The notes: generated from the letters alone by a model not told the origin. DNA of 32,000 nucleotides from an uncultured Bacilli bacterium (GCA_934096315.1 CAKOLT010000006.1:13083-45082), one strand, 5' to 3'. Counted from the first letter of the stretch, positions 21,171-32,000 are shown. Numbers and translations: made by a program.

Positions 21171-22022
21171 TTATCTATGTTTATAATTATTTTTATTTAA
21201 TAGTTCCATTTTTATGTTATCACTACAAAATAGGTTATTTAGAGGAAAGTTATGAGGGAGTTTTAATCCATAACTACTCTCTAGACTGCTTAAGTTGATA
21301 TATCCTTTTATTATAGTATTTGATAAGTCTAAGTACTCTGCGTCTTTTAGTCTGCCTAGGTTAACTTTACCTAGGACTACTAGAGGCATTACTACGTCTT
21401 TGGAGTTAATTTTATTACTTAAGTCTAGATCTGTTAAAAGGACTTTAGTCTTACCCATAGTGTATTCTTCTTTGGTAAGGGCTACTTCTTCTTCTTTTAT
21501 GTTAAATATTAGACTGTAGTCTTTTCTTTGGTTTCTTTTTGATTTAATTAGTTCTATCTCTGGGTCTTTTTCATGTCCAAAGCCTTCGATATCTTTATCT
21601 ATTTCATATAAGAATCTTAATTCTTCCCTAGATAATTCTGTGTTTTCTTCTTCTTTTTTCTTAATACTAATTAGTTTGGATATATCAGATACTTTAGTAT
21701 AGGCTTCTTTACTAAAGGGAAGCGTTTTTAGTTTGCCCATTAATACTTGTAAATATTTATGTTCTAGGTTTTGGGAGTGTGATGTTCCTCTTATTTCTGC
21801 GATGTTATTTCCTTCCATTCTAATACCTATTTTAGGTATATAGTCGTCTTCTTTTTGGATATAGTAGACATAGAATGTTCCCTCTTCGACTTGTCTTTTA
21901 GCTATATTTATATCTCCGGAAGTACACCATCCGGTGTGTTTATTTTGAAGAGAGTTAAAGAGTTTAATGTAATCATCACCCATTTTATATGTAATCCATT
22001 TACCTTGGGTAGTATCTTTCAT
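21171..22022 (-). CDS. hypothetical protein (unknown N-terminal domain with HTGWCTSG motif, leucine-rich C-terminal part)
   Basis: 283-aa ORF in a tight string with its neighbours (20-30 nt gaps). The C-terminal LLTDLDLSN...VNLGRLKDAEYLDLSNTIIKGYINLSSL looks LRR-like. No family recognised. Confidence 0.5.
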   Translation of the reverse strand: MKDTTQGKWITYKMGDDYIKLFNSLQNKHTGWCTSGDINIAKRQVEEGTFYVYYIQKEDDYIPKIGIRMEGNNIAEIRGTSHSQNLEHKYLQVLMGKLKTLPFSKEAYTKVSDISKLISIKKKEEENTELSREELRFLYEIDKDIEGFGHEKDPEIELIKSKRNQRKDYSLIFNIKEEEVALTKEEYTMGKTKVLLTDLDLSNKINSKDVVMPLVVLGKVNLGRLKDAEYLDLSNTIIKGYINLSSLESSYGLKLPHNFPLNNLFCSDNIKMELLNKNNYKHR

Positions 22023-22042
22023 ATTGTATCACTTCTTTCTTT

Positions 22043-23692
22043 TTATTCGAAGTAACTTCCTCCGATGAATTCTCTTAATATAGATGTGTCTGGTACAGCA
22101 TCACTTGGAATTGGTAATACATACTGAAGCAAATCTATTAGTCTAAGTGCAGTGTCATAGGCTGGATCATCTTGTTTTACAGAAAATAGTAGTGGTTCTG
22201 CATATGTTTTTAAGACTCCGAGTTCGTATGCTAGAGAGGAGTTGAATATTTCATCACATACATCTTGGAATGGGAAGACATATTTTTCTTCTCCCTTTCT
22301 AACGTCTTGCCATGTATTTATGGTATGTGTTGGAGTGTATCCTCGTACTCTGTTATCTCTTACTATTCTTCTAAGTAATCTAATATCAGTCATATTTATT
22401 CTGTTATCATTGTCTATATTTAAATATGCAAGAGGGCTTATATATATTTTGTATTTTCTTTTTTTAGGGATATCTTTAAGTAATTCTTCGTTTAAGGCAT
22501 GTAGTCCCTCAATAATTAGGATGTCATTACTTCCTAGTTGCATATTTTTATTATATGTTTTTTTACCTGTAATGAAATCATAGGTAGGTATTGTTACTTT
22601 GTTTCCTTTTAATAGTTTAGTTATTTGATTATTGAATAGTTTAACGTCAATAGCTCTTAGGCTTTCGTAGTCTGGTTTACCATTTTCATCTAGAGGGGTA
22701 TCTTCTCTATTTAAGAAGTAGTCATCTAGTGATAATGGTTTAGGGTTTAGTCCTAGTGTTTTTAGGTATAGAGCTAGTTTCTTAGAGGTTGTAGTTTTTC
22801 CTGAAGATGAGGGACCTGATAGTAGTACTACTTTTATGTCTTCTTTATTTAAGACTATTTTTTCCGCAATACTAAGGAGTTTATAGTCTTGTATTATTTC
22901 TGATAGTTTTACTACTTCCCCACTTTTACTTGCTATTATTAAGTCATCTAGGTCTCCGACGGTGTTCATGTTTAAGACATTACCCCAGCTGGAGTATTCT
23001 TCAATTGCTTTAAAGTATTTTTCATGATGGGTGTATTTAACTATTTTACCATTATCATACATAGAGGGAAATCTTAATACTATTCCTTTTTCTAAAAGTG
23101 TTAAGTCATAGTATTTAAGATAACTACTGTCATAGGGAAGGTCTCCGAGAATATAGTCATACATACCATCAAATTTATATAGTGTTATAAATTTAGCAGT
23201 GTCATAACATAATGTTTTTACTTTGTCTAATCTATTTATGTTTTTAAAGTAGTTTATCGCCTCCATACGGGATGTTTCTATTTTTTGGAAGGGAATTGCC
23301 TTGTTAATCATTTCATCCATTATTTCTTTTATTTTAGGGATATCTTTTTTGTCTAGGGGGGCTTCTATTTCATAGTATACTCCCTTATCAATAGAGTGCC
23401 TTACTCTAAAAGAGATGTCCTTTCCGTAATATTTTAAGATAGCTCTTTTAAAGAGGATGGATAATCCTTTTTCGTATAACATATTACCTCTTTTGGTATT
23501 TATGTCATAAAGTTGTAGGGTACCACTTTTTTCTATAGCGTCATCACACCCGATAAATTGGTTTTTAAATTTACCACTTATAATATCAAATTTATATTCT
23601 TTTTTTACATCATTTATAATGTCTAGGAATTTTATTCCTTTTCGGTATTCTTTCTTTTTACCGTTTTCAAAAGTTATAGTTATTGTATCCAT
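22043..23692 (-). CDS. uridine kinase-family nucleoside kinase fused to a ThrRS-like N-terminal (TGS/second additional) region
   Basis: P-loop LLSGPSSSGKTTTSKKLA, ILIIEGLHALN, RRIVRDNRVRG (uridine kinase/PRK family). The N-terminus ITITFENGKKKEY is TGS-like. I prefer the ATG at 23692 (MDTITI, with AAGGGG 7 nt upstream) over the track start at 23731. Confidence 0.8.
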   Translation of the reverse strand: MDTITITFENGKKKEYRKGIKFLDIINDVKKEYKFDIISGKFKNQFIGCDDAIEKSGTLQLYDINTKRGNMLYEKGLSILFKRAILKYYGKDISFRVRHSIDKGVYYEIEAPLDKKDIPKIKEIMDEMINKAIPFQKIETSRMEAINYFKNINRLDKVKTLCYDTAKFITLYKFDGMYDYILGDLPYDSSYLKYYDLTLLEKGIVLRFPSMYDNGKIVKYTHHEKYFKAIEEYSSWGNVLNMNTVGDLDDLIIASKSGEVVKLSEIIQDYKLLSIAEKIVLNKEDIKVVLLSGPSSSGKTTTSKKLALYLKTLGLNPKPLSLDDYFLNREDTPLDENGKPDYESLRAIDVKLFNNQITKLLKGNKVTIPTYDFITGKKTYNKNMQLGSNDILIIEGLHALNEELLKDIPKKRKYKIYISPLAYLNIDNDNRINMTDIRLLRRIVRDNRVRGYTPTHTINTWQDVRKGEEKYVFPFQDVCDEIFNSSLAYELGVLKTYAEPLLFSVKQDDPAYDTALRLIDLLQYVLPIPSDAVPDTSILREFIGGSYFE

Positions 23693-23715
23693 AATATAAC
23701 CCCTTTCTATTTTAT

Positions 23716-25467
23716 TTATTTTATATACCATACTTCATTTATGTTAACACTCTGACTATTAGGAGCTGGGTTTGGTTTATCCATTTTAACAATAACTGGT
23801 ATTTTAAAGGCATTACCAAATATCATACATACCCCAGGATTTAGACTTTTAATCATTCTGATTTCTCCTTCACTTACGTCTGGAATGATATCAGAGACGA
23901 ATTTTAGGTCTTTTGGGTGAAACATTTTAAAGACTAAGAAGTTACTGCACTGACTTACGGCAGTCTCACTTAATTCAAATGGTCTTTGGCTAATTAGTCC
24001 TAGAATACATCCATATTTTCTTCCTTCTTTGGCTATTCTATCAAAGATATTGTATCCGAGGATATTTACGTCTATATCATTTTGGACATATCTATGGGCT
24101 TCTTCTAAGACTATGTGGAATGGTAGACTACCTCTTATTTTTAATTTAGCTATATAGTCAAAGAGTATTCTAGAGTATATTTTAACTAGTCCTTTAGCAA
24201 ATCTATCATCTACATAGTTTATGTTGAAGTTAATTACTTGGGCTTTATTTCCTGTTCTTGAAGTTAATAACATTTTGATATATCCATCCATATCTATATA
24301 TCTATCAAAGTTAAAGTATATAGCATAATCTCCCTTACAAAGGGTATATAGTCTTATTTTAAGAACGTTTGCATAGTTATATACTTTATCACTATTGAAT
24401 ATACCTTCACTAATTAGGGCAAACTCTAATGAGTAATAGAAGTCATCCATGGTATACATATAACTACCACTAGGAAGAACAAGAGGTATATCAAAGTTTT
24501 CGAACTTCTCTAGGTATTTAATTATTAATTCTATGTCTGCAAACCTACCACCTTCTTCAATAGATATACACTGTCTAAAGGTTCTAACCCATCCCCCTTT
24601 ACTTAATTTTATATCTAAGTTTATTTCTCCGGTTTGAAACTTTGTTAGTATAGATATTATTTTATTTCTAGCTTCACTTACATTCTTACTTGAGAATATT
24701 GTATCAAGGAGGCTCTTAGCTATTATACTGTTTTTATAGTTATCAATACTAGCATCTTCACTTGCAAAGTAGTTTACATATTTAAGGGCTTTTTCTATTA
24801 TGGGTAGTTGTCTAACATCATCTACTCCGAGAAGAATAGCTATATCATCAGCATTTAGTAACCAAAATGGTATTATTAGTTTTTCGTTTTCAGTGTCATT
24901 TAGGTTAGTGGTATATACTTTATAGTTTATGTTTTCATTAGTACTTCCTATTTCTTTGAAGGCTTGTTGGTATTCACCATAAGCATCAAAGAGGAATATA
25001 TTAGTTCTAAAGGGAAGGTATTTAGCTTCGTAGAAGATACTTTGTAGTATCTTTGCTACAGAGTAGCTTTTACCACTTCCTGTATTACCTAGTATAGAAA
25101 AGTGGTTGGAGAAAAAGCTATTTACATTCATATTTATGTTATAGTCATTATATATATAACTAGTACCTAGTTTTATATAATTGTCATTACTACTAGTGGA
25201 ATATACTATATCTAATTCTTCTTTAGTTATTAATCTTACCTCGCTATTAAAACTAGGGGGTACAATACTTCCATAAATAAATTTACCATTTTCAAATAGT
25301 CCGATTAGTTTAATGGTTAAGTGTTCTGTATCTACATTACTAATAGTACCTACGATAGTATTATTAAATACTACATACTTACCATTAACATTACCTATTT
25401 CATATATATTAATACTTAGTTTTACTTTAACTATAGTGTCTTCAACACTTATTATATTACCTAACAT
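23716..25467 (-). CDS. HerA/FtsK-like (DUF87) P-loop ATPase
   Basis: 583 aa. N-terminal HAS-barrel-like beta region, Walker A ILGNTGSGKSYSV, Walker B FHIVLEEAHRYV, GLISQRP sensor block. Confidence 0.8.
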   Translation of the reverse strand: MLGNIISVEDTIVKVKLSINIYEIGNVNGKYVVFNNTIVGTISNVDTEHLTIKLIGLFENGKFIYGSIVPPSFNSEVRLITKEELDIVYSTSSNDNYIKLGTSYIYNDYNINMNVNSFFSNHFSILGNTGSGKSYSVAKILQSIFYEAKYLPFRTNIFLFDAYGEYQQAFKEIGSTNENINYKVYTTNLNDTENEKLIIPFWLLNADDIAILLGVDDVRQLPIIEKALKYVNYFASEDASIDNYKNSIIAKSLLDTIFSSKNVSEARNKIISILTKFQTGEINLDIKLSKGGWVRTFRQCISIEEGGRFADIELIIKYLEKFENFDIPLVLPSGSYMYTMDDFYYSLEFALISEGIFNSDKVYNYANVLKIRLYTLCKGDYAIYFNFDRYIDMDGYIKMLLTSRTGNKAQVINFNINYVDDRFAKGLVKIYSRILFDYIAKLKIRGSLPFHIVLEEAHRYVQNDIDVNILGYNIFDRIAKEGRKYGCILGLISQRPFELSETAVSQCSNFLVFKMFHPKDLKFVSDIIPDVSEGEIRMIKSLNPGVCMIFGNAFKIPVIVKMDKPNPAPNSQSVNINEVWYIK

Positions 25468-25548
25468 ATTTTGTATCCTTTCTTTATATATTATATATAA
25501 GTATATAAGGCCACAGGAGGTTAGAGTCCTCCTTTGTCCTTATATTTA

Positions 25549-26568
25549 CTATGAGCATGTGTCACATCCAAGGGTATATGGGTTATCAAAGGAACCGCCT
25601 CCTCCGGTTACATAGACACTGGATTTTAGATAGAAGGTGGGGCGGGCGGCAGGAGGAACGTTCGTGCTATAGCGATACACGTCGCCAGAACTGACGCGCC
25701 ACACGCGATTCGAGCCAGAAGCATAAGGTGTTATTGTCCACTCATATCCTTTATATAACCAATTATTATTTCCAAAGTAATGTGCACTTTGAGTTGTTGT
25801 ATCAGAACTTGAGTAATAACCACTTGCGTATAGGTAATCACTTAAGTACATTAGACCTACTGGAGCGTCTGTTGTAGGACTGTAAGAACCTGATTTTGCA
25901 GAGGTACAAGAGTTTCCTCCTCTTTCACATAAGTACCAGTTTTGTTTACTCTGGTCTGTACCACTACCGTATAGGTACCACGTTACTGTTTCTATATAAC
26001 TTCTTAGGTTATCTGCTATTCCATAGCCTACTATAGGAGTGCAGTTATTAGTCCTATAATTAGTATTACTACTATAGTATGTCCAAGTACTACAATTACC
26101 ATAGGTATCTGATATATCCTTTTTATTATAAAAGTATTCATTAAGTAAAATATTAAGGTTTCCTCCTACCCAATTGTTGTTATACTCAGAGTATGTACCA
26201 CTAGTATTTGAACTATTACGTACTCCCCAAGAATATCCTCCAAGAGAACGGGCTCTAATTAATTTAACCATTTCTACTCCTGTTTTACCATGGGAATTAG
26301 AATCAAAGACTCCTATTATACGATACATATCATTATTAAACTTAACATAGTTATTAACTTCTGCTCCTACATATCTATATTCATGAGAATTAGTATAGTA
26401 TACTCCACTAGCCCCACTTGACCAACTAGAGCCTTTATTTAAGGCTTTAACTGTATCTACTAGAGTTGTGCCTACGGCATAACTCTTTTTAGAGTTTACC
26501 TGAAATACTACTATAACAAGTGTAACTAGTATTAAAGATACTATTATAATTATTTTCTTTTTACTCAT
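25549..26568 (-). CDS. DGR variable protein 2 (signal-anchored, C-type-lectin-like C-terminal domain carrying VR1)
   Basis: 339 aa. N-terminal anchor IIIIVSLILVTLVIVVF. The body is almost identical to the C-terminal 300 aa of the 28960..31416 protein. VR1 encodes ASGSNRVWRVSSGDVYRYSTNVPPAARP near the C-terminus. Confidence 0.85.
   Translation of the reverse strand: MSKKKIIIIVSLILVTLVIVVFQVNSKKSYAVGTTLVDTVKALNKGSSWSSGASGVYYTNSHEYRYVGAEVNNYVKFNNDMYRIIGVFDSNSHGKTGVEMVKLIRARSLGGYSWGVRNSSNTSGTYSEYNNNWVGGNLNILLNEYFYNKKDISDTYGNCSTWTYYSSNTNYRTNNCTPIVGYGIADNLRSYIETVTWYLYGSGTDQSKQNWYLCERGGNSCTSAKSGSYSPTTDAPVGLMYLSDYLYASGYYSSSDTTTQSAHYFGNNNWLYKGYEWTITPYASGSNRVWRVSSGDVYRYSTNVPPAARPTFYLKSSVYVTGGGGSFDNPYTLGCDTCS
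25640..25722 (-). repeat. DGR variable repeat VR1
   Basis: Gap-free 83-nt alignment to the TR. 18 differences fall at TR adenines (coding strand) and 3 at non-adenine positions. It ends in the GC-only run GCCGCCCGCCCC. Confidence 0.9.
25723..26103 (-). repeat. 381-bp segment identical to 29119..29499 (copy A)
   Basis: A base-by-base read shows no mismatch over 381 bp directly abutting the VR. Identity decays beyond 26104/29500 and downstream of the VR. Confidence 0.85.
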
Positions 26569-26849
26569 TCATTACCATTCCTCTCATTTAATTTCTTATT
26601 TATATTATTTAAAATATAGGCTAGTTTATATTTTAAATAATATAAATTATACTTATTATCCACATACTCTTTCTTATGTACATTTAAGTTATCAATTACT
26701 ATATAGTTAATATGATACTCCCTTAATTTATCTATCTTTTTAAAGTTTACTCTTTTATCATTTATATAAGTATATAACTTACCTTTCTTTGCTATTAATA
26801 TTACATAGTTATTATACCACAGTTTAGCCATATTGTATCTATTTTTCAT
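26565..26849 (-). CDS. hypothetical 94-aa protein translationally coupled to DGR target 2
   Basis: ATG preceded by AAGGGAG (6-nt spacing). The stop overlaps the target-2 start (ATGA). Lys/Asn/Tyr-rich, no TM segment, no recognised family. Confidence 0.5.
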   Translation of the reverse strand: MKNRYNMAKLWYNNYVILIAKKGKLYTYINDKRVNFKKIDKLREYHINYIVIDNLNVHKKEYVDNKYNLYYLKYKLAYILNNINKKLNERNGNE

Positions 26850-26877
26850 ATCTTACTCCCTTGTTATGTGTCTTGTA

Positions 26878-26899
26878 GGGACTTTATAAATAAAGTCCC
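26878..26899 (-). other. perfect 10-bp hairpin in the noncoding segment 3' of the TR
   Basis: GGGACTTTAT AA ATAAAGTCCC. It lies about 100 nt downstream (- strand) of the TR and about 30 nt upstream of orf94. No U-run follows, so it is not a canonical terminator. Confidence 0.45.
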
Positions 26900-27002
26900 G
26901 TCCACATACTGTCTTTAGGGTTTAACCCAAGGATAGTCTATGTTACTTATATCTATCAAAGTATATCCTTAAACATACAGTCTCCCAAATATAAGAAGCT
27001 AA

Positions 27003-27085
27003 GGGCGGGCGGCATTAGGATTGTTCGTGTTATTTTTATTGACGTTGCCATTACTGACGTTCCACGCATTATTCGAGTCAGAAGC
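27003..27085 (-). repeat. DGR template repeat (TR)
   Basis: Noncoding, 24 nt downstream of the RT stop. In the VR frame it reads ASDSNNAWNVSNGNVNKNNTNNPNAARP, with 11 AAY codons and 28 adenines. It ends in GCCGCCCGCCC, matching both VRs. Confidence 0.9.
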
Positions 27086-27109
27086 CCATTAAAGACTACC
27101 CTATAATAG

Positions 27110-27967
27110 TTAGTTATATCTATCTATTATATTATTTATCTTTTCTCTATTATATTTAAATGTATATTTATAGTTATTTACACTACTAAATCTCTTCTCA
27201 AAGGTTATATAACCTTTGAGAAATAATTTCTTGTTTTTTCTAGTAGTTCTTTTTATCTTATTCATAGTCTCTGATCTTAAGTTCACTATGGTTTTATTAT
27301 TTATTACTCTATACCTATAACTTAGAAATACAAACCCTTCTTTAGAACTTACTATCATAGTCTTTTTCTTATTTATTTTTAATTTATATTCATTTAAGAG
27401 TATAAATTCTATTTCCTTTAGACACTTCTTTAAATACTCTTTATCTGGGTGCATTAATATATAATCATCCATATAGACTACTAGATGCTTTATTTTTAGT
27501 TTATGTACTATATAATTATGTAATTTATATAGATAGAATATAGCAAGAAACTGATTGGACAAGAGTCCAATGGATAATCCTTTACCTTTGTTATACAAAG
27601 GTAAAGAGTTTATCTCATCCCTATGGGATGGGTTTCTTTCGGATTCCTTCTCCTTAAGTTTTATTATAGTATCATTTACATAACCTTGGTTAGTGGACTC
27701 TAGTATTAAGTTTAGATATCTATATTCTTCTTTAGTAACTTTATCTTTAATAAGACTCTTTAATACTTCATGGTCTATATTATAGAAATATTTAGATATA
27801 TCTAACTTAAGTATATAGAATTTATTATTTCTTTTTTCTTCTTCTAGATACTTCATAACTAATTTATGAGCATAACTAGAACCCATACCCTTTCTAGTGG
27901 CAACATTCCTAATGTCTAAATACCTTGATAAGAAATATATTGTATTTAGGCATTGGTATGGTGCCAC
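27110..27967 (-). CDS. DGR-type reverse transcriptase, main (C-terminal) reading frame
   Basis: RT motifs ATRKGMGSSYA (motif 2), YILKLDISKYFYNIDHEVL (3), GLSIGLLSNQFLAIFYL (4, the DGR-like I-G-x-x-x-S-Q region), VVYMDDYILM (5, YxDD) and KINKKKTMIVSSKEGFVFLSYRY (6/7). It has no ATG start and continues from the 27909..28106 frame after a 1-nt shift. Confidence 0.85.
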   Translation of the reverse strand: MAPYQCLNTIYFLSRYLDIRNVATRKGMGSSYAHKLVMKYLEEEKRNNKFYILKLDISKYFYNIDHEVLKSLIKDKVTKEEYRYLNLILESTNQGYVNDTIIKLKEKESERNPSHRDEINSLPLYNKGKGLSIGLLSNQFLAIFYLYKLHNYIVHKLKIKHLVVYMDDYILMHPDKEYLKKCLKEIEFILLNEYKLKINKKKTMIVSSKEGFVFLSYRYRVINNKTIVNLRSETMNKIKRTTRKNKKLFLKGYITFEKRFSSVNNYKYTFKYNREKINNIIDRYN

Positions 27968-28106
27968 TTTCTATATTCTCATTAATTGAGGTTATGTATT
28001 CCATTTTCTGTGTTTCAAACTCATATAACCTTCTTTTGTTCTTTGCTTTCTTACATAACTCTTTTTCGTATATGTCTAATAACCTCTGGAGATTAACATT
28101 ATTCAT
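27909..28106 (-). CDS. N-terminal fragment of the DGR reverse transcriptase (separate frame)
   Basis: 65 aa, MNNVNLQRLLDIYEKELCKKAKNKRRLYEFE...IESGTIPMPKYNIFLI, like the usual DGR RT N-terminus (L..A...A.KGK ... G.Y.P..Y..F.I). It stops at 27909-27911 and overlaps the avd stop by 8 nt. Confidence 0.7.
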   Translation of the reverse strand: MNNVNLQRLLDIYEKELCKKAKNKRRLYEFETQKMEYITSINENIESGTIPMPKYNIFLIKVFRH

Positions 28107-28443
28107 TTGCTTTTATCCATCCCCTTGTTATTTTATTAATCTCTGTTAATTTATTGGTTCTTTCTTTAAGTTGTTTTTGACTAATATATTTATATATATA
28201 CATTCTCTCTAAGTAGAAGTCTACAACTTTAAGGCTTACTATTACTAATTCTTGTAAATGTAATCTTCTTTCTTTATCTGCCTTTATTAAGTTAGCATTA
28301 TAAATATTTCTTAATATATTAAGTAGTTCTTCTCTAATTTGATCTCTATTATATAAATCTTTTTTGGGGATATTCTCTAAAAGAGGTTCCATAGTTAATA
28401 TAAATTCTTTTACTTTCTTAGCTAGTATAAAGTTATCATCCAT
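28099..28443 (-). CDS. avd: Avd-like accessory variability determinant (four-helix-bundle protein)
   Basis: 114 aa, basic and all-helical by composition. LAKKVKEFILTMEPLLENIPKKDLYNRDQIREELLNILRNI resembles the Avd / four-helix-bundle family (F..l...lp..e...l..Q.). It lies immediately upstream of, and overlapping, the RT. Confidence 0.7.
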   Translation of the reverse strand: MDDNFILAKKVKEFILTMEPLLENIPKKDLYNRDQIREELLNILRNIYNANLIKADKERRLHLQELVIVSLKVVDFYLERMYIYKYISQKQLKERTNKLTEINKITRGWIKANE

Positions 28444-28873
28444 GAATAATCACGTCTTCGATAACAGTTAATATTTTCTTTAGAGTCTCTTCACTTTCAA
28501 TATTGTAAATTTTATTTACAATATTGTCTACTCTTTCTTTATTTTCCATTTGTATTAGTGCCTTTTTTAATATCTTGTAATAATTATTTAAATTCTTAAA
28601 GTTTACGGTTACTGGTTCGTGGTCTCTATATAGTATGGAATAGTTTATTTTGTGTTTTTCTAAGGCGTTTACTACTTTATTTAGTGATGTTTCAGGAAAG
28701 CCCACGGTGCCAGTGAAACTTATTTTATACCCAAAGAGATAGTTTAATATTTTACTATCATCATTATACGAACTGAAAAAGGCACCATTTTTATAGACAC
28801 GCAAAACCCCCTTATTATTCTCTCTCTGTTCGCTCGCTCTCTCTGTTCGCTCGCTCTCTCTGAGAGCGTCCAA
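28436..28873 (-). CDS. MutS domain-I-like small accessory protein
   Basis: VLRVYKNGAFFSSYNDDSKILNYLFGYKISFTG..TVGFPETSLNKVVNALEKHKINYSIL parallels the MutS N-terminal mismatch-binding domain ([32 protein letters not shown]...[25 protein letters not shown]). The track start is a TTG and the N-terminus is uncertain. Confidence 0.55.
   Translation of the reverse strand: MDALRESERTERASEQRENNKGVLRVYKNGAFFSSYNDDSKILNYLFGYKISFTGTVGFPETSLNKVVNALEKHKINYSILYRDHEPVTVNFKNLNNYYKILKKALIQMENKERVDNIVNKIYNIESEETLKKILTVIEDVIIHG
28822..28868. repeat. GC-rich 17-bp tandem repeat (2.4 copies) ending in a 7-bp palindrome
   Basis: CTCTCTGTTCGCTCGCT at 28822-28838 and 28839-28855, then CTCTCTG. CGCTCTC (28852-28858) pairs with GAGAGCG (28862-28868) around a 3-nt loop. 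Confidence 0.8.
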
Positions 28874-28959
28874 TATCTTTTTCTTCTTTCATTTTTAATC
28901 ATTCCTTTCTTGGTCAAGGAAGAGTAAACCCTTCCCTGCCCATTTATTTTTTATATTAT

Positions 28960-31416
28960 TTATTCTATTACATATGGGTCATCAATTGTTCCGTCTCCCC
29001 CGAGTATTGAGACTGTAGATTTTAGATATAAGGTAGGGCGGGCGGCATAAGGAGGGTTCGTGGCATAGTCATTCACGTAGCCACTACTGACGTGCCACAC
29101 GCGAATCGAGGCAGAAGCATAAGGTGTTATTGTCCACTCATATCCTTTATATAACCAATTATTATTTCCAAAGTAATGTGCACTTTGAGTTGTTGTATCA
29201 GAACTTGAGTAATAACCACTTGCGTATAGGTAATCACTTAAGTACATTAGACCTACTGGAGCGTCTGTTGTAGGACTGTAAGAACCTGATTTTGCAGAGG
29301 TACAAGAGTTTCCTCCTCTTTCACATAAGTACCAGTTTTGTTTACTCTGGTCTGTACCACTACCGTATAGGTACCACGTTACTGTTTCTATATAACTTCT
29401 TAGGTTATCTGCTATTCCATAGCCTACTATAGGAGTGCAGTTATTAGTCCTATAATTAGTATTACTACTATAGTATGTCCAAGTACTACAATTACCATAT
29501 GTATCTGATGTATCCTTTTTATTATAAAAATATTCATTAAGTAAGATATTAAGGTTTCCTCCTACCCAATTATTGTTATAACTAGAGTAAGTACCACTAG
29601 TATTTGAGGAGTTATGATTACCCCATGAATATCCTCCAAGAGGATTAGCCATTATTAACTTAACTAAATAACCATCTTTACCATGAGAATTAGAGTCAAA
29701 GACTCCTATTATTTGATACATATCATTATTAAACCAGACATAGTTTTTAGGTTCTGCTCCTATATATCTATATTCATGGTATTTCACTGTACCATCAGTA
29801 TCAGTATACTTATTAGTAGCATATAATCCTTCTGCCCCTGACTCCCATGTATCTCCTTGATTTAACTTAATAATCTTACTTACGGCATTTTCTTTAATAG
29901 ATACTTTCTTATAATATTTATATCTATTACCATTATTGTCTTCTAAAACATATATAGCATTAACAGAACCATTAATACTCTCTGATGTAGCTGGTTTAAC
30001 TAATACTATCTTACAACCTGTTCCATTGTCTTTACAAGTAACTAGGTCTTTTAAGGCTACTATTGGTTCTTTTTCTATACCTACACTACTTGTATCTATA
30101 CTTGGAACAGTAGATGATAATGTTGTAGAAGTTATCCTTGCATAACCATTACCAGAGTGTCCTGTTTCACTTGTTCCTGATGTACCTGTAAAGGAAGTAT
30201 TTCCTCCCACTGTAGCGGCATCTGTTAAGTAATAACTACTAGTTAATTTAACACCTGATGGATAGTTTGAGGCTGTACTAGAAGTATATACATATCCAGA
30301 ACCTCCTCCACCGGCATAGTTTTCGGAAGACCCTCCAGTACCACCGTACCATCCACTTCCACCACCACCACATTCTCCACTAGAATATGTAGCATTTCCA
30401 CCACTACCAAAACTAGAACCAGATGTTGATGTTCCTCCAGACATACTTCCAGCTCCTCCAGAGGTACCTCCTCCATAGCCACCATTAGCATCATCAGAAC
30501 CTCCGCCTCCGCCTCCAGCGACTATTACTCTGGAATAGAGATTATCTTCAGATATTCTAATATCAGAGGCTCCTCCGCCTCCACCACCATTGTGACTTGT
30601 ACCATTCCAAGCAACTCCAGAACCTCCGCCATTAAATCCTCCAGCAAGGGTTGCTTCCGAACTAAAAGAACCATCATCGTTTGTTCCTTGACCCCCTACA
30701 TAGATAAATATATTAGTATCTTTTGTTAGTGTAAGTGTTCCATAACTATAACCACCCATTCCCCCCGGATGTGATGATGAACCTCCACCTTGAGCACCCC
30801 ATACTTCTAATTTATGGGTACCACTTTTAAGTGTAGCTGTTTGCACTGCTCCAGTATAATTATAATCAGTAGTAGTTGTTTTTGTCTCTGTCCCACCTTC
30901 AGGTACATTTCCTGTATTAAATGTCTCTGTAACAATATATTTACCTTGTTCTAACCCTAACTCATTAGAGTCTGCTCCTGCTACTCCAATATTTATGGTT
31001 ATTTCACTACTGGTATTATTTATTATTAATAATTCTACTGGTAATTTCTCGTCATTATTAATAGTACCTACTGTAGGGTTAGTACTCCAGTCTATTTTAT
31101 AAATTCCTATATCATCACTTTTAGTACTAGGATTAACCATTTCATAAAATACTCCGTAGTAAATACTTTTACCAGTATCATTGGATACATTAACTATTAC
31201 TGATCTATTGTTTCCTGCGGATACTTTAACTTGTTTATATTCAAACACCTTTAGGGTTGTTTGTATATCACTTGCACTCTTCATGGTTATTATATCTTTA
31301 GTGGTAGTCTTCTCTAAGGAGAAGAGTGCAAATGATGAGTACATACATAGGGATAGTATCCCTATGATTATTATTAGTAATAAATAGTTTTCTTTTATCA
31401 TATATCTATCTTTCAT
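28960..31416 (-). CDS. DGR variable protein 1 (anchor + beta module + ALK/LTK-type glycine-rich domain + lectin-like domain with VR2)
   Basis: 818 aa. GGAGG lies 6 nt before the ATG. N-terminal TM helix LLLIIIIGILSLCMY. Residues about 184-430 are glycine-rich (LEVWGAQGGG, IFIYVGGQG, GGGGGGASDIRI, RVIVAGGGGGG). The C-terminal 300 aa are paralogous to 25549..26568. VR2 encodes ASASIRVWHVSSGYVNDYATNPPYAARP. Confidence 0.85.
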   Translation of the reverse strand: MKDRYMIKENYLLLIIIIGILSLCMYSSFALFSLEKTTTKDIITMKSASDIQTTLKVFEYKQVKVSAGNNRSVIVNVSNDTGKSIYYGVFYEMVNPSTKSDDIGIYKIDWSTNPTVGTINNDEKLPVELLIINNTSSEITINIGVAGADSNELGLEQGKYIVTETFNTGNVPEGGTETKTTTTDYNYTGAVQTATLKSGTHKLEVWGAQGGGSSSHPGGMGGYSYGTLTLTKDTNIFIYVGGQGTNDDGSFSSEATLAGGFNGGGSGVAWNGTSHNGGGGGGASDIRISEDNLYSRVIVAGGGGGGSDDANGGYGGGTSGGAGSMSGGTSTSGSSFGSGGNATYSSGECGGGGSGWYGGTGGSSENYAGGGGSGYVYTSSTASNYPSGVKLTSSYYLTDAATVGGNTSFTGTSGTSETGHSGNGYARITSTTLSSTVPSIDTSSVGIEKEPIVALKDLVTCKDNGTGCKIVLVKPATSESINGSVNAIYVLEDNNGNRYKYYKKVSIKENAVSKIIKLNQGDTWESGAEGLYATNKYTDTDGTVKYHEYRYIGAEPKNYVWFNNDMYQIIGVFDSNSHGKDGYLVKLIMANPLGGYSWGNHNSSNTSGTYSSYNNNWVGGNLNILLNEYFYNKKDTSDTYGNCSTWTYYSSNTNYRTNNCTPIVGYGIADNLRSYIETVTWYLYGSGTDQSKQNWYLCERGGNSCTSAKSGSYSPTTDAPVGLMYLSDYLYASGYYSSSDTTTQSAHYFGNNNWLYKGYEWTITPYASASIRVWHVSSGYVNDYATNPPYAARPTLYLKSTVSILGGDGTIDDPYVIE
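29036..29118 (-). repeat. DGR variable repeat VR2
   Basis: Gap-free 83-nt alignment to the TR. 15 differences fall at TR adenines, plus the same 3 non-adenine differences seen in VR1. Confidence 0.9.
29119..29499 (-). repeat. 381-bp segment identical to 25723..26103 (copy B)
   Basis: Same as copy A; constant offset of 3396 nt. Confidence 0.85.
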
Positions 31417-31443
31417 CTAATTACCTCCGTAGTATCTATAATA

Positions 31444-31472
31444 ATTATAGCATATGAAATAATAAAACACAA
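31444..31472 (-). promoter_or_regulatory. candidate sigma-A promoter of DGR target 1
   Basis: - strand TTGTGT (31467-31472), 17-nt spacer, TATAAT (31444-31449), then GGAGG (31424-31428) and the ATG at 31416. The -35 element lies inside the upstream terminator arm. Confidence 0.4.
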
Positions 31473-31504
31473 GAAAATTGAAAATATTTTTCTTGTGTTT
31501 TATT
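31461..31504. terminator. strong hairpin terminator (17-bp stem)
   Basis: AATAAAACACAAGAAAA (31461-31477) pairs perfectly with TTTTCTTGTGTTTTATT (31488-31504). T/A-runs on both sides insulate the DGR from the upstream gene. Confidence 0.7.
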
Positions 31505-31611
31505 ATTTAGTAATTATCTATAATACCTACTGAGGTAAAATATTGTAAATGTTATACTAAGTATTAACTATTATATCTATGGTTATACCATGTATAGTAT
31601 AAATTAAAATT

Positions 31612-31636
31612 AGACCCATATAATATATATGGATCT
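31612..31636 (-). terminator. putative terminator after the Rpn-tail-like gene
   Basis: 11-bp stem (AGATCCATATA / TATATGGGTCT on the - strand, one G-U pair), 3-nt loop, followed by AATTTTAATTT. Confidence 0.45.
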
Positions 31637-31673
31637 ATGTAGAGATAAATTTTATTTTAATTAATAAGTTTTA

Positions 31674-31967
31674 CTATTTTATGTTATTTATTTCTGCTAC
31701 TGTATGACCTGTAATTTTAGATATTATTTTTTCGTCTAGTCCTTCTTTTAGCATAGCTTTTATTGTTTTTACTGCCTCAGCTTGTTTTCCTTTTTCTATT
31801 CCTTGTTCTATACCTTGTTCTATTCCTTGTTCTATACCTTCCCTAAGTCCTTTTTTTCTTGCTTCCTCGGCAAAGTATTCTCTTTCCTCTCTAGCTAGTT
31901 TCTCTTGGTCATAGGGATTTATACAAACATTACTATTTTTATATTCCTCAAAGTAATCACTAAACAT
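31674..31967 (-). CDS. small protein resembling the C-terminal tail of Rpn/YhgA-like (PD-(D/E)XK transposase-like) proteins
   Basis: 97 aa. Strong RBS AAGGAGG 6 nt before the ATG. REGIEQGIEQGIEQGIEKGK...AVKTIKAMLKEGLDEKIISKITGHTVAEINNI is the repeat plus helix-turn-helix-like tail typical of Rpn-family C-termini. The nuclease domain is absent. Confidence 0.55.
   Translation of the reverse strand: MFSDYFEEYKNSNVCINPYDQEKLAREEREYFAEEARKKGLREGIEQGIEQGIEQGIEKGKQAEAVKTIKAMLKEGLDEKIISKITGHTVAEINNIK
31789..31848. repeat. 12-bp in-frame tandem repeat (GIEQ units)
   Basis: CCTTGTTCTAT(A/T) three times at 31801-31836, flanked by degenerate copies. Encodes (E/K)QGI repeats. Confidence 0.8.
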
Positions 31968-32000
31968 TTTAACCTCCTTATCATATCTTCCATCCTCTGT

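What the first reader, a model, noticed from the sequence alone, without database searches (positions are those of the whole stretch)
27003..27085. Adenine-specific TR to VR substitution pattern and an AAY-rich template
In a hand alignment (83 nt, no gaps, coding strand) the TR has 28 adenines. Of these, 20 differ in at least one VR (18 in VR1, 15 in VR2). Every VR1-versus-VR2 difference falls on a TR adenine. In the VR frame the TR reads ASDSNNAWNVSNGNVNKNNTNNPNAARP with 11 AAY codons. VR1 encodes ASGSNRVWRVSSGDVYRYSTNVPPAARP and VR2 encodes ASASIRVWHVSSGYVNDYATNPPYAARP. AAY codons are the classic DGR design because they diversify widely without creating stop codons. TR and both VRs are also local GC-rich islands in very AT-rich DNA.
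Basis: seen in the sequence. Interest (0 to 1): 0.85.

Follow-up and report, generated by a model that had tools for sequence, protein, structure and literature searches.

The report
Decaying diversity-generating retroelement in gut bacterium
The adenine-only differences are real and mark a textbook diversity-generating retroelement that rewrites the tips of two surface proteins, but in this strain a 95-base deletion has broken its reverse transcriptase, so it is probably a frozen relic.

Summary
The template repeat (TR, 27085..27003, minus strand) has 28 adenines. 18 of 21 mismatches to VR1 and 15 of 18 to VR2 fall on adenines. All 15 VR1-versus-VR2 differences fall on TR adenines (p = 3e-9). 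There are 11 AAY codons.

This is a chromosomal diversity-generating retroelement (DGR) in an uncultured low-GC gut Bacilli genome. The gene order is target2(VR2), a MutS-like gene, avd, RT, TR, a structured RNA, a second short MutS-like gene, then target1(VR1).

- **Broken RT.** A 95-nt deletion between 9-nt direct repeats removes RT motifs 1-2 and shifts the frame. Six independent assemblies carry the same junction, and all have identical TR and VRs.
- **Drifted TR.** The three non-adenine mismatches, and the odd AAA codon, are later mutations of the TR. Against the TR of the closest strain with an intact RT, both VRs differ only at adenines (17/17 and 14/14).
- **Conserved RNA.** A 137-nt structured RNA follows the TR. 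It shows strong covariation in 83 related copies and has no Rfam family. It resembles the RNA elements described for the Bordetella phage DGR.

Verdict: a known kind of system, a new member, probably inactive in this strain.

The parts
28960..31416 (-). Target gene 2 (818 aa). It has an N-terminal membrane anchor, an ALK/LTK-type glycine-rich domain, and a C-terminal variable domain that carries VR2.
   Evidence: ORF. PF12810 E 5.3e-46. The C-terminal ~310 aa are 79% identical to target 1.
29036..29118 (-). VR2, a variable repeat that ends 75 nt before the stop codon.
   Evidence: 18 mismatches to the window TR, 15 at A. 14 of 14 at A against the ancestral TR of L091.
28436..28873 (-). MutS-like (MSL) accessory gene, ORF145.
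   Evidence: A homolog lies upstream of avd in about 80 of 86 related loci. 16 of 31 family members hit Pfam MutS_I, best E 4.8e-6. The family profile's best PDB hit is MSH6 domain I, E 0.017. The window protein alone gives only E 0.004, below the Pfam cut-off.
28099..28443 (-). avd, the accessory variability determinant (114 aa).
   Evidence: Pfam bAvd 2e-8. NCBIfam DivGenRetAVD 6.9e-11. phrog_3206 'Avd protein of DGR' 1.8e-17.
27909..28106 (-). N-terminal fragment of the RT gene (65 aa), ending in a frameshift-induced stop.
   Evidence: 91% identical to residues 1-61 of the intact ortholog P0001.
27923..27931 (-). Deletion junction: the single remaining copy (TTATCAAGG) of a 9-nt direct repeat. 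95 nt are lost here.
   Evidence: In the intact relative L001 the repeats lie at 316-324 and 411-419, which is 95 nt apart. The same junction occurs in 6 independent assemblies.
27110..27967 (-). C-terminal part of the RT gene (285-aa ORF). It holds RT motifs 3-7 including YMDD but lacks motifs 1-2.
   Evidence: RVT_1 E 8.7e-12, covering profile positions 53-204 only. The alignment with 14 intact RTs shows that 'DPKYRIIMSVSIYDKLINHYYSKMVLDKKLS' is missing, including 10 residues invariant in 14 intact RTs.
27093..27101 (-). Upstream strand (GGGUAGUCU) of a long-range RNA duplex that brackets the TR.
   Evidence: It pairs with 26939..26931. Compensatory changes occur across 14 loci.
27002..27085 (-). 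Template repeat (TR). It is non-coding and has 28 A. It carries four derived point changes at 27068, 27066, 27041 and 27035.
   Evidence: The derived state is polarised by L091, L001 and both VRs.
26863..26999 (-). Structured RNA module directly 3' of the TR, with these parts:
- P1: 26995-26986 paired with 26955-26946.
- P2 hairpin: 26978-26961.
- Duplex strand: 26939-26931.
- P3: 26928-26918.
- P4: 26908-26903 paired with 26870-26865.
- P5, a 9-bp stem with a tetraloop: 26899-26878.
   Evidence: Covariance model R1 finds 83 full-length matches in 85 sources. 90.7% of cells are paired, against 64% when shuffled and 37-52% when slid. All 38 pairs show double changes. Independent single-sequence folds of 14 sequences give the same layout. 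Coordinates were checked. No Rfam match.
26565..26849 (-). ORF94, a second short MutS-like accessory gene. Its stop overlaps the start of target 1.
   Evidence: Homologs occur in 77 of about 83 related loci. Profile-profile match to the ORF145/MSL family: probability 89.8%, E 1.8e-6. No Pfam, NCBIfam or PHROG hit.
25549..26568 (-). Target gene 1 (339 aa). It has an N-terminal membrane anchor and a variable domain that carries VR1.
   Evidence: ORF. In the family alignment, variation concentrates in the VR segment. Relatives weakly hit DUF6273.
25640..25722 (-). VR1, a variable repeat that ends 91 nt before the stop codon.
   Evidence: 21 mismatches to the window TR, 18 at A. 17 of 17 at A against the ancestral TR.

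Best explanation
This is a chromosomal DGR of an uncultured, low-GC gut Bacilli bacterium. In its working form, the cassette makes an RNA that holds the TR bracketed by a long-range duplex and followed by a structured module. The RT, together with Avd, copies the TR into cDNA and misincorporates opposite adenines. The cDNA then replaces the homologous 83-84 nt near the 3' ends of two paralogous surface-protein genes. About 27 adenines, mostly in 12 AAY codons, can give up to about 1e16 protein variants without creating stop codons.

This happened in the recent past of this lineage, at least once after the two target genes duplicated. In the strain in the window, a 95-nt slippage-type deletion between 9-nt direct repeats has removed RT motifs 1-2 and shifted the frame. 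The element most likely no longer diversifies. VR1 and VR2 are frozen, and the TR has picked up four ordinary point mutations.

- **Shown:** the sequence pattern, the gene identities, the deletion and its occurrence in independent assemblies, the polarity of the TR changes, the RNA covariation, and VR variation among intact-RT relatives.
- **Inferred:** the biochemical steps (by analogy with the Bordetella phage DGR), the loss of activity, and the roles of the two MutS-like proteins.
For: - **Adenine specificity.** p is 1e-6 to 1e-8 for TR against each VR, and 3e-9 for VR1 against VR2. Against the ancestral TR of L091, all 17 VR1 and all 14 VR2 mismatches are at A.
- **RT and Avd.** Both are identified, and 1829 RT homologs were found, the closest intact ones about 363 aa long.
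- **Deletion.** It is mapped to the base and flanked by TTATCAAGG/TTATCAAAG. It removes residues invariant in 14 intact RTs: P63, K64, R66, M69, I73, K76, H80 and others.
- **Independent assemblies.** The same junction occurs in assemblies from at least 6 samples, with identical TR, VR1 and VR2.
- **Intact relatives vary.** Strains that encode the identical Avd protein but have an intact or uninterrupted RT (L091, L092, L094/L096) keep the ancestral TR, or carry other VR2 sequences that differ at TR adenines. Three sister-species samples with an identical RT protein have three different VR pairs.
- **TR drift.** 4 of 11 window-lineage-specific substitutions lie in the 84-nt TR (Fisher p = 0.0027). 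One of them, AAC to AAA, creates the only TR codon that can mutate to a stop.
- **RNA.** A conserved RNA module and a long-range duplex are present. They match the element types reported downstream of TRs by Handa et al. (bioRxiv 10.1101/2023.10.23.563531): a 9-bp tetraloop stem-loop and a duplex that pairs sequences upstream and downstream of the TR.
Against: - **Weak test of frozen VRs.** The deletion lineage is nearly clonal, with 1-3 SNPs per 9.8 kb. Identical VRs across samples therefore say little about inactivity.
- **Trans supply not excluded.** Only 32 kb of the genome is visible. A second DGR RT elsewhere could act in trans, and some related genomes hold several DGR loci (three contigs of one MAG).
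- **TR excess may be smaller.** The four TR changes fall in two tight pairs, so they may reflect only two events. That would weaken the p = 0.003 excess.
- **Fold untested.** Both structure predictions for the variable domain failed (pLDDT 34 and 41).
- **No VR hairpin.** No hairpin is evident downstream of the VRs, unlike the Bordetella phage element.
Confidence: 0.85

Rival explanations
1. The DGR is still active in this strain. Either a second DGR reverse transcriptase elsewhere in the genome supplies RT activity and uses this TR RNA, or the two RT fragments somehow still work.
For: - Avd, both MutS-like genes, both target genes and the whole RNA module are intact. The RNA module is identical to that of the intact-RT relatives (163.2 bits in window, L001 and L091).
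- Related genomes can carry several DGR loci.
Against: - The deletion removes RT motifs 1-2, including residues invariant in 14 intact RTs, and it shifts the frame.
- Both VRs keep the ancestral bases at all four positions where the TR has since changed, so no homing from the present TR is recorded.
- VRs are identical in 6 assemblies.
- In the Bordetella phage system, the RNA elements bind their own RT-Avd complex intimately (Handa et al., bioRxiv 10.1101/2023.10.23.563531). This makes promiscuous use in trans less likely, though that is an inference.
Confidence: 0.1
2. The broken RT is an assembly or sequencing artefact, and the element is an ordinary, intact, active DGR.
For: Short direct repeats can cause local misassembly. 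Close relatives have an intact 363-aa RT.
Against: - The identical junction appears in contigs from at least six samples, from several studies and assemblers: MERR22 scaffolds, Hadza SPAdes, k141 contigs and Logan.
- It always comes with the same four derived TR bases, which the contigs with an intact RT (L091, L001) lack.
Confidence: 0.03
3. This is not a retroelement product. The three repeats are ordinary paralogous or gene-conversion copies whose differences happen to fall on adenines.
For: The two target genes are paralogs, about 89-90% identical over 800 nt.
Against: - The adenine bias has p of 1e-8 or lower.
- The flanks of the two VRs are 100% identical for 70 nt upstream, while the 83-nt core differs at 15 sites, all on TR adenines.
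- The TR lies outside any ORF, next to RT and avd.
- The same pattern recurs in dozens of related loci.
Confidence: 0.01

Closest known systems
Bordetella phage BPP-1 DGR (mtd-avd-TR-brt), the prototype
   Same: - Adenine-specific TR-to-VR transfer, an AAY-rich TR, and a VR at the 3' end of the target ORF.
- An Avd partner for the RT, and a G+C-rich 3' end shared by TR and VR.
- Structured RNA directly 3' of the TR, with a 9-bp tetraloop stem-loop and a duplex pairing sequences on both sides of the TR. These element types are described by Handa et al. (bioRxiv 10.1101/2023.10.23.563531; PMC6182149).
   Different: - The element is chromosomal, not in a phage.
- The gene order is avd-RT-TR, not avd-TR-RT.
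- There are two targets and two extra MutS-like genes.
- The TR is short (83-84 nt), and no hairpin follows the VRs.
- The RT is disrupted in this strain.
MSL-containing DGRs ('Architecture D') and the avd-RT-TR order ('B2') of Wu et al. 2018 (PMC5758913), which include the Legionella DGR
   Same: A small MutS-like accessory gene co-occurs with avd. All genes lie on one strand. The TR follows the RT.
   Different: - Here a second, shorter MutS-like paralog (ORF94) is also conserved in 77 of about 83 related loci. I did not find this described, though I did not search for it specifically.
- The host clade is uncultured gut Bacilli, labelled 'Tenericutes' in some records.
DUF6273-type, C-type-lectin-like DGR target proteins of gut Bacillota phages (PMC10743442, PMC11792537)
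   Same: - The VR lies at the C-terminal end of the domain.
- The same sequence signature surrounds the VR (W-T/L-x-T/S-P ... V/A-R-P-x-x-x-L).
- 5 of 12 related targets weakly hit DUF6273, best E 0.0031.
   Different: - The window's own proteins do not reach any Pfam threshold.
- They are cellular, membrane-anchored proteins rather than phage tail or decoration proteins.
- The fold could not be confirmed here.

Membership tests
Diversity-generating retroelement (DGR) | A TR/VR repeat pair whose differences are concentrated at TR adenines. | tested here: met
   18 of 21 and 15 of 18 mismatches at A, p 1e-8 and 1e-6. 17 of 17 and 14 of 14 against the ancestral TR.
Diversity-generating retroelement (DGR) | A reverse transcriptase gene next to the TR. 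| tested here: met
   The RVT_1 domain ORF ends 24 nt upstream of the TR. The intact ortholog matches phrog_1423 (RT) at 4e-52. The gene is present but disrupted in this strain.
Diversity-generating retroelement (DGR) | The RT is intact, with all catalytic motifs (needed for an active member). | tested here: not met
   A 95-nt deletion removes motifs 1-2 and shifts the frame. Motifs 3-7, including YMDD, remain.
Diversity-generating retroelement (DGR) | The RT belongs to the DGR clade of prokaryotic RTs rather than retron, group II intron, Abi or DRT clades. | tested here: inconclusive
   No DGR-specific RT model was available. There are only weak, sub-threshold hits to group II RT and generic or DRT RT models. 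The motif-4 region reads IGLLSNQFLAIFY, and IGxMTSQFL in relatives, which from memory resembles the DGR signature. No phylogeny was made.
Diversity-generating retroelement (DGR) | The VR is located inside, and near the 3' end of, a protein-coding target gene, in frame. | tested here: met
   VR1 ends 91 nt and VR2 75 nt before the stop codons of intact ORFs.
Diversity-generating retroelement (DGR) | An Avd accessory protein (present in most but not all DGRs). | tested here: met
   bAvd 2e-8, DivGenRetAVD 6.9e-11, PHROG 'Avd protein of DGR' 1.8e-17. All are below the curated cut-offs but agree with each other.
Diversity-generating retroelement (DGR) | Evidence of actual diversification: different VRs among close relatives that share the same TR and RT. 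| tested here: met
   This is met for intact-RT relatives: L002, L003 and L005 share an identical RT and have three VR sets; L092 and L094 differ from the window. It is not seen within the deletion lineage.
Diversity-generating retroelement (DGR) | A target variable domain with a C-type lectin (or Ig-like) fold. | tested here: inconclusive
   Two AlphaFold2 runs gave pLDDT 34 and 41, so no fold search was made. Only weak DUF6273 hits were found in relatives.
MSL (MutS-like) DGR accessory proteins (Wu et al. 2018) | A small protein with similarity to MutS, encoded in a DGR cassette together with avd. | tested here: met
   ORF145 is 145 aa and lies directly upstream of avd. Family hits to MutS_I reach 4.8e-6. 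The best PDB hit is the MSH6 mismatch-binding domain, E 0.017. It is conserved in about 80 of 86 loci. Direct comparison with the published MSL sequences was not possible.
DGR RNA elements of Handa et al. (Avd-binding stem-loop; duplex pairing sequences upstream and downstream of the TR) | A stem-loop of about 9 bp with a tetraloop downstream of the TR, and complementarity between the sequences flanking the TR. | tested here: met
   P5 is GGGACUUUA-UUUA-UAAAGUCCC, and a 9-bp stem with a UACG loop in other clades. The duplex GGGUAGUCU/AGACUAUCC has compensatory changes in 14 loci. Protein binding itself cannot be tested here.

The most novel reading that the evidence does not exclude
The window belongs to a large, so far undescribed subclass of DGRs in uncultured gut Bacilli. 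Three things would define it: a conserved 137-nt RNA module absent from Rfam, two MutS-domain-I-like accessory proteins, and, in some members, arrays of 3-4 TR-plus-RNA units served by one RT.

The strain in the window would also be a natural knock-out, with the RT deleted and everything else intact. Its frozen VRs and fast-drifting TR would show how a DGR decays, and how quickly the template loses its no-stop-codon design once homing stops.
Probability: 0.4. Interest if true: 0.5.

Novelty: new member of a known kind. Interest (0 to 1): 0.33.

Why it matters
As a DGR this is ordinary. The adenine-specific, AAY-rich template is the textbook signature, and such elements are known to be very common in gut bacteria.

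Three things give it modest added value:
- **A natural knock-out.** It is a clearly documented natural loss of function. The exact lesion is known, the ancestral template can be recovered from a sister strain, and two 'fossil' VRs remain. This allows comparison of diversifying and frozen lineages of one species in public metagenomes.
- **An RNA test set.** The 83 covarying copies of the RNA module next to the TR give an independent, sequence-based test of the RNA elements proposed from the Bordetella phage structure.
- **Accessory proteins.** Two MutS-like accessory proteins are consistently present. This points to an unstudied step, perhaps handling of the mismatched cDNA-target heteroduplex, in a large clade of gut DGRs.

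Tried and rejected
- **Structure prediction.** The target variable domain was predicted twice, with 28 and 72 sequences of 53-80% identity. pLDDT was 34 and 41, so no fold search was run.
- **Profile search for the target domain.** A profile search of the target family against PDB sequences found nothing meaningful.
- **RNAalifold.** On a raw MAFFT alignment of 14 TR-downstream regions it predicted no structure. The structure became clear only from single-sequence folds, clade-wise folding and a hand-built covariance model.
- **Rfam.** There was no match at gathering thresholds over the whole window. Only chance-level hits (E above 3) appeared near the TR.
- **Phage database.** Megablast of 20 kb against phage records found no match. 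The flanking genes are housekeeping (DnaG, RpoD, QueA, Sua5), so a prophage context was rejected.
- **Hairpin after the VRs.** None was found; the z-scores were positive.
- **TR search in relatives.** My first TR search looked only downstream of the RT and missed many loci. The covariance model later showed that the TR module lies upstream of the MutS-like gene in many relatives.
- **ORF94.** It has no hit in Pfam, NCBIfam, PHROGs, PADLOC or PDB. Only the profile-profile link to the MSL family was found.
- **Programmed frameshift.** I considered whether frameshifting could rescue the RT. I rejected this because 31 codons holding invariant motif residues are physically absent.

Full report
**1. 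The observation**

I read the three stretches and aligned them without gaps on the minus (coding) strand.
- The TR (27085..27003) has 28 A, 23 C, 16 G and 16 T.
- VR1 (25722..25640) differs from it at 21 positions, 18 of them TR adenines (Fisher p = 1.4e-8).
- VR2 (29118..29036) differs at 18 positions, 15 of them adenines (p = 1.4e-6).
- Twenty adenines are changed in at least one VR.
- All 15 differences between VR1 and VR2 lie on TR adenines (p = 3.1e-9).
- 27 of the 28 adenines sit at codon positions 1 or 2.
- GC content is 47%, 64% and 60% for TR, VR1 and VR2, in a window of about 29% GC.

The repeat finder recovers the same three-copy family and no other. The 70 nt upstream of the two VRs are identical to each other and unrelated to the TR flank. 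The variation is therefore confined to the repeat. Both VRs share these.

**2. What surrounds it**

Every sizeable ORF in this part of the window is on the minus strand. In reading order the cassette is:
- **Target 2** (31416..28960, 818 aa). It has a membrane anchor and an ALK/LTK-type glycine-rich domain (PF12810, E 5e-46), with VR2 near the C-terminus.
- **ORF145** (28873..28436).
- **avd** (28443..28099). It matches bAvd at 2e-8, NCBIfam DivGenRetAVD at 7e-11, and PHROG 'Avd protein of DGR' at 1.8e-17.
- **A reverse-transcriptase gene in two pieces** (28106..27909 and 27967..27110; RVT_1 at 8.7e-12).
- **The TR**, 24 nt after the RT stop codon.
- **A non-coding stretch of about 150 nt.**
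- **ORF94** (26849..26565).
- **Target 1** (26568..25549, 339 aa) with VR1.

The rest of the window encodes housekeeping genes: DnaG, RpoD, QueA, Sua5, a glycoside hydrolase, a HerA-like ATPase and a uridine-kinase-like protein. Nothing matches phage records. The element is therefore chromosomal. RT relatives come almost entirely from MAGs labelled uncultured Bacilli, Tenericutes or Mycoplasma. These are from human (Hadza), rabbit and ruminant guts.

**3. The RT is broken**

The closest homologs are about 363 aa long. The nearest, P0001, is 96% identical. The window lacks its segment DPKYRIIMSVSIYDKLINHYYSKMVLDKKLS. This segment holds RT motifs 1 and 2 and ten residues that are invariant in 14 intact relatives.

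At the DNA level the window aligns to the intact contig L001 in two blocks that skip 95 nt. These 95 nt lie between the direct repeats TTATCAAGG and TTATCAAAG, and one copy remains at 27931..27923. Because 95 is not a multiple of three, the frame shifts and the N-terminal fragment ends after 65 codons. This looks like a slippage or microhomology deletion.

It is not an assembly artefact. Looking up the window's Avd protein returned contigs from at least six samples, several studies and several assemblers, all with the identical junction (L087/L097, L088, L089, L090, L093, L095). It also returned others with the same Avd protein but an uninterrupted RT (L091, L092, L094).

**4. The non-adenine mismatches are TR drift**

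L091 is 98.4-98.9% identical to the window and has a 363-aa RT. Its TR differs from the window's at four positions: AAC GTG instead of AAT GCG, GTG instead of GTC, and AAC instead of AAA. At all four, both window VRs carry the L091 base or, at the fourth, a base consistent with it. A pattern made from the L091 TR with every A masked matches VR1 and VR2 with zero mismatches, and it misses the window's own TR. Against that ancestral TR, all 17 VR1 mismatches and all 14 VR2 mismatches are at adenines.

A three-way comparison with L001 as outgroup assigns all four changes to the window lineage. Of the 11 lineage-specific substitutions in 1430 aligned columns, four fall in the 84-nt TR (Fisher p = 0.0027). 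They fall in two tight pairs, so they may reflect only two events, and I treat the excess as suggestive.

The ancestral TR had 12 AAY codons and no codon that adenine mutagenesis could turn into a stop. The derived AAA codon can become TAA.

**5. Evidence of diversification, and of its absence here**

All deletion-bearing contigs have identical TR, VR1 and VR2. They are also nearly clonal overall, with 1-3 SNPs in 9.8 kb, so this is only weak evidence of inactivity. The stronger argument is that neither VR has copied any of the derived TR bases.

Strains with the same Avd protein and an intact RT behave differently. They carry other VR2 sequences that differ from the ancestral TR at adenines in 14 of 14 positions (L092) and 16 of 18 positions (L094). 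In the sister species (RT 79% identical), contigs from different samples encode the identical RT protein but three different VR pairs (L002/4/6, L003, L005). Their mismatches are at adenines in 12 of 14 up to 20 of 20 positions. The target family also splits into very many 90% clusters that differ mainly in the VR segment.

**6. Accessory genes**

- **ORF145.** It has a homolog directly upstream of avd in about 80 of 86 related loci. 16 of 31 family members hit Pfam MutS_I, best E 4.8e-6. The family profile's best PDB match is the mismatch-binding domain of MSH6 (E 0.017), aligned over the G-x-F-Y...GFP core. This fits the MSL (MutS-like) accessory genes and 'Architecture D' of Wu et al. 2018. 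That paper also lists the avd-RT-TR order as 'B2' (PMC5758913).
- **ORF94.** It is conserved in 77 of about 83 loci. It has no library hit, but it matches the ORF145 family profile (hhalign probability 89.8%, E 1.8e-6). It looks like a shortened paralog of ORF145.

The role of both proteins is unknown. Handling the mismatched cDNA-target heteroduplex is a guess.

**7. The RNA next to the TR**

The 113 nt after the TR are 100% identical between the window and L001, although the rest of the region differs by 3%. Single-sequence folds of 14 divergent loci give the same layout:
- a long stem P1 that starts at the 3' edge of the TR and encloses a hairpin P2;
- a conserved single strand ending in UAUCC;
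- a small hairpin P3;
- a stem P4 that encloses a 9-bp hairpin P5, capped by a tetraloop (UUUA here, UACG in other clades).

A covariance model built from four sequences with this structure finds 83 full-length matches in 85 sources. On the resulting alignment:
- 90.7% of cells are paired, against 64% in shuffles and 37-52% when partners are slid;
- all 38 pairs show compensatory changes;
- 786 cells show a double change, against 239 expected.

The alignment was fitted to the model, which favours the structure. The inner part of P1 is poorly supported (47-61% paired).

The conserved single strand (AGACUAUCC, 26939..26931) is complementary to GGGUAGUCU, which lies just upstream of the TR (27101..27093). 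Both strands change together across 14 loci. Examples are GGGUAAUCU/AGAUUAUCC, GGGUAGGAU/AUCCUAUCC and GGGAAGUUU/AAACUUUCC.

Handa et al. (bioRxiv 10.1101/2023.10.23.563531) report two element types downstream of TRs in 207 of 278 avd-containing DGRs. One is a stem-loop of about 9 bp with a tetraloop that binds Avd. The other is a duplex pairing sequences upstream and downstream of the TR. The elements here match both descriptions. Rfam has no corresponding family.

**8. Target domain**

The two targets share a C-terminal domain of about 310 aa. The signature around the VR is NWLYKGYEWT-x-TP...[VR]...ARPTFYLKS, and it is conserved in targets of distant relatives. Five of twelve relatives weakly hit DUF6273. 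Two papers describe DUF6273 as a C-type-lectin-like DGR target domain with the VR at its C-terminal end (PMC10743442, PMC11792537). The window proteins themselves reach no threshold, and both structure predictions failed. The fold therefore remains an inference.

**9. Verdict**

The finding is real and correctly interpreted. It is a DGR of known type in a poorly studied host clade, so it counts as a new member of a known kind. In this strain the element is most likely a recently inactivated relic: the RT carries a deletion, the VRs are frozen and the TR is drifting. I cannot exclude that another RT acts on it in trans. Interest is modest. The side findings are the natural knock-out, the strongly covarying RNA module, the two MutS-like genes and the multi-TR arrays in relatives. 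These are worth a note rather than a headline.

Noticed in passing
window 26565-26849 (minus strand): ORF94 lies between the TR-associated RNA and target 1. It is conserved in 77 of about 83 related DGR loci and is a shortened paralog of the MutS-like accessory gene ORF145 (hhalign probability 89.8%). This DGR clade therefore carries two MutS-domain-I-like genes.
   Followed up: partly
L016 7100-9180; L019 2230-4115; L021 1010-5115; L051 550-1400: Some related cassettes hold 3-4 tandem units. Each unit has an upstream GGGUAA duplex strand, an AAY-rich TR and the 137-nt RNA module. The TR copies differ from one another at non-adenine positions, so one RT appears to serve several templates.
   Followed up: partly
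L027, L037, L078 and many other loci: In many relatives the TR plus RNA module sits upstream of the MutS-like gene, avd and RT, rather than downstream of the RT as in the window. The ORF94 homolog then directly follows the RT. The module has moved within the cassette during evolution.
   Followed up: no
window 28960-31416 (minus strand), residues 193-430: Target 2 carries an ALK/LTK-type glycine-rich domain (PF12810, E 5e-46) between its membrane anchor and the variable domain. The same region matches several PHROG families of unknown function (E 1e-34).
   Followed up: no
window 27002-27085: The window lineage has about ten times more lineage-specific substitutions in the TR (4 in 84 nt) than in the flanking cassette (7 in 1346 nt). 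That flank includes the RT pseudogene, which should also be unconstrained. The four changes form two tight pairs. The cause is unclear; possibilities are chance, two multi-base events, or recombination.
   Followed up: partly
L002-L006 compared with window 22000-32000: The cassette of the sister species (RT 79% identical) has the same internal gene order but lies in a different chromosomal neighbourhood: SpoVA, Rnf and ProRS genes rather than HerA-like ATPase, uridine-kinase-like protein and Sua5. AAA_14/DUF4143 ATPase genes flank it there and also lie upstream in L087.
   Followed up: no
window 22043-25467 (minus strand): Directly downstream of target 1 lies a gene pair with overlapping ends. 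One encodes a HerA/DUF87-type ATPase (583 aa). The other encodes a 562-aa protein with a uridine-kinase/PRK domain. Their function and any link to the DGR are unknown.
   Followed up: no
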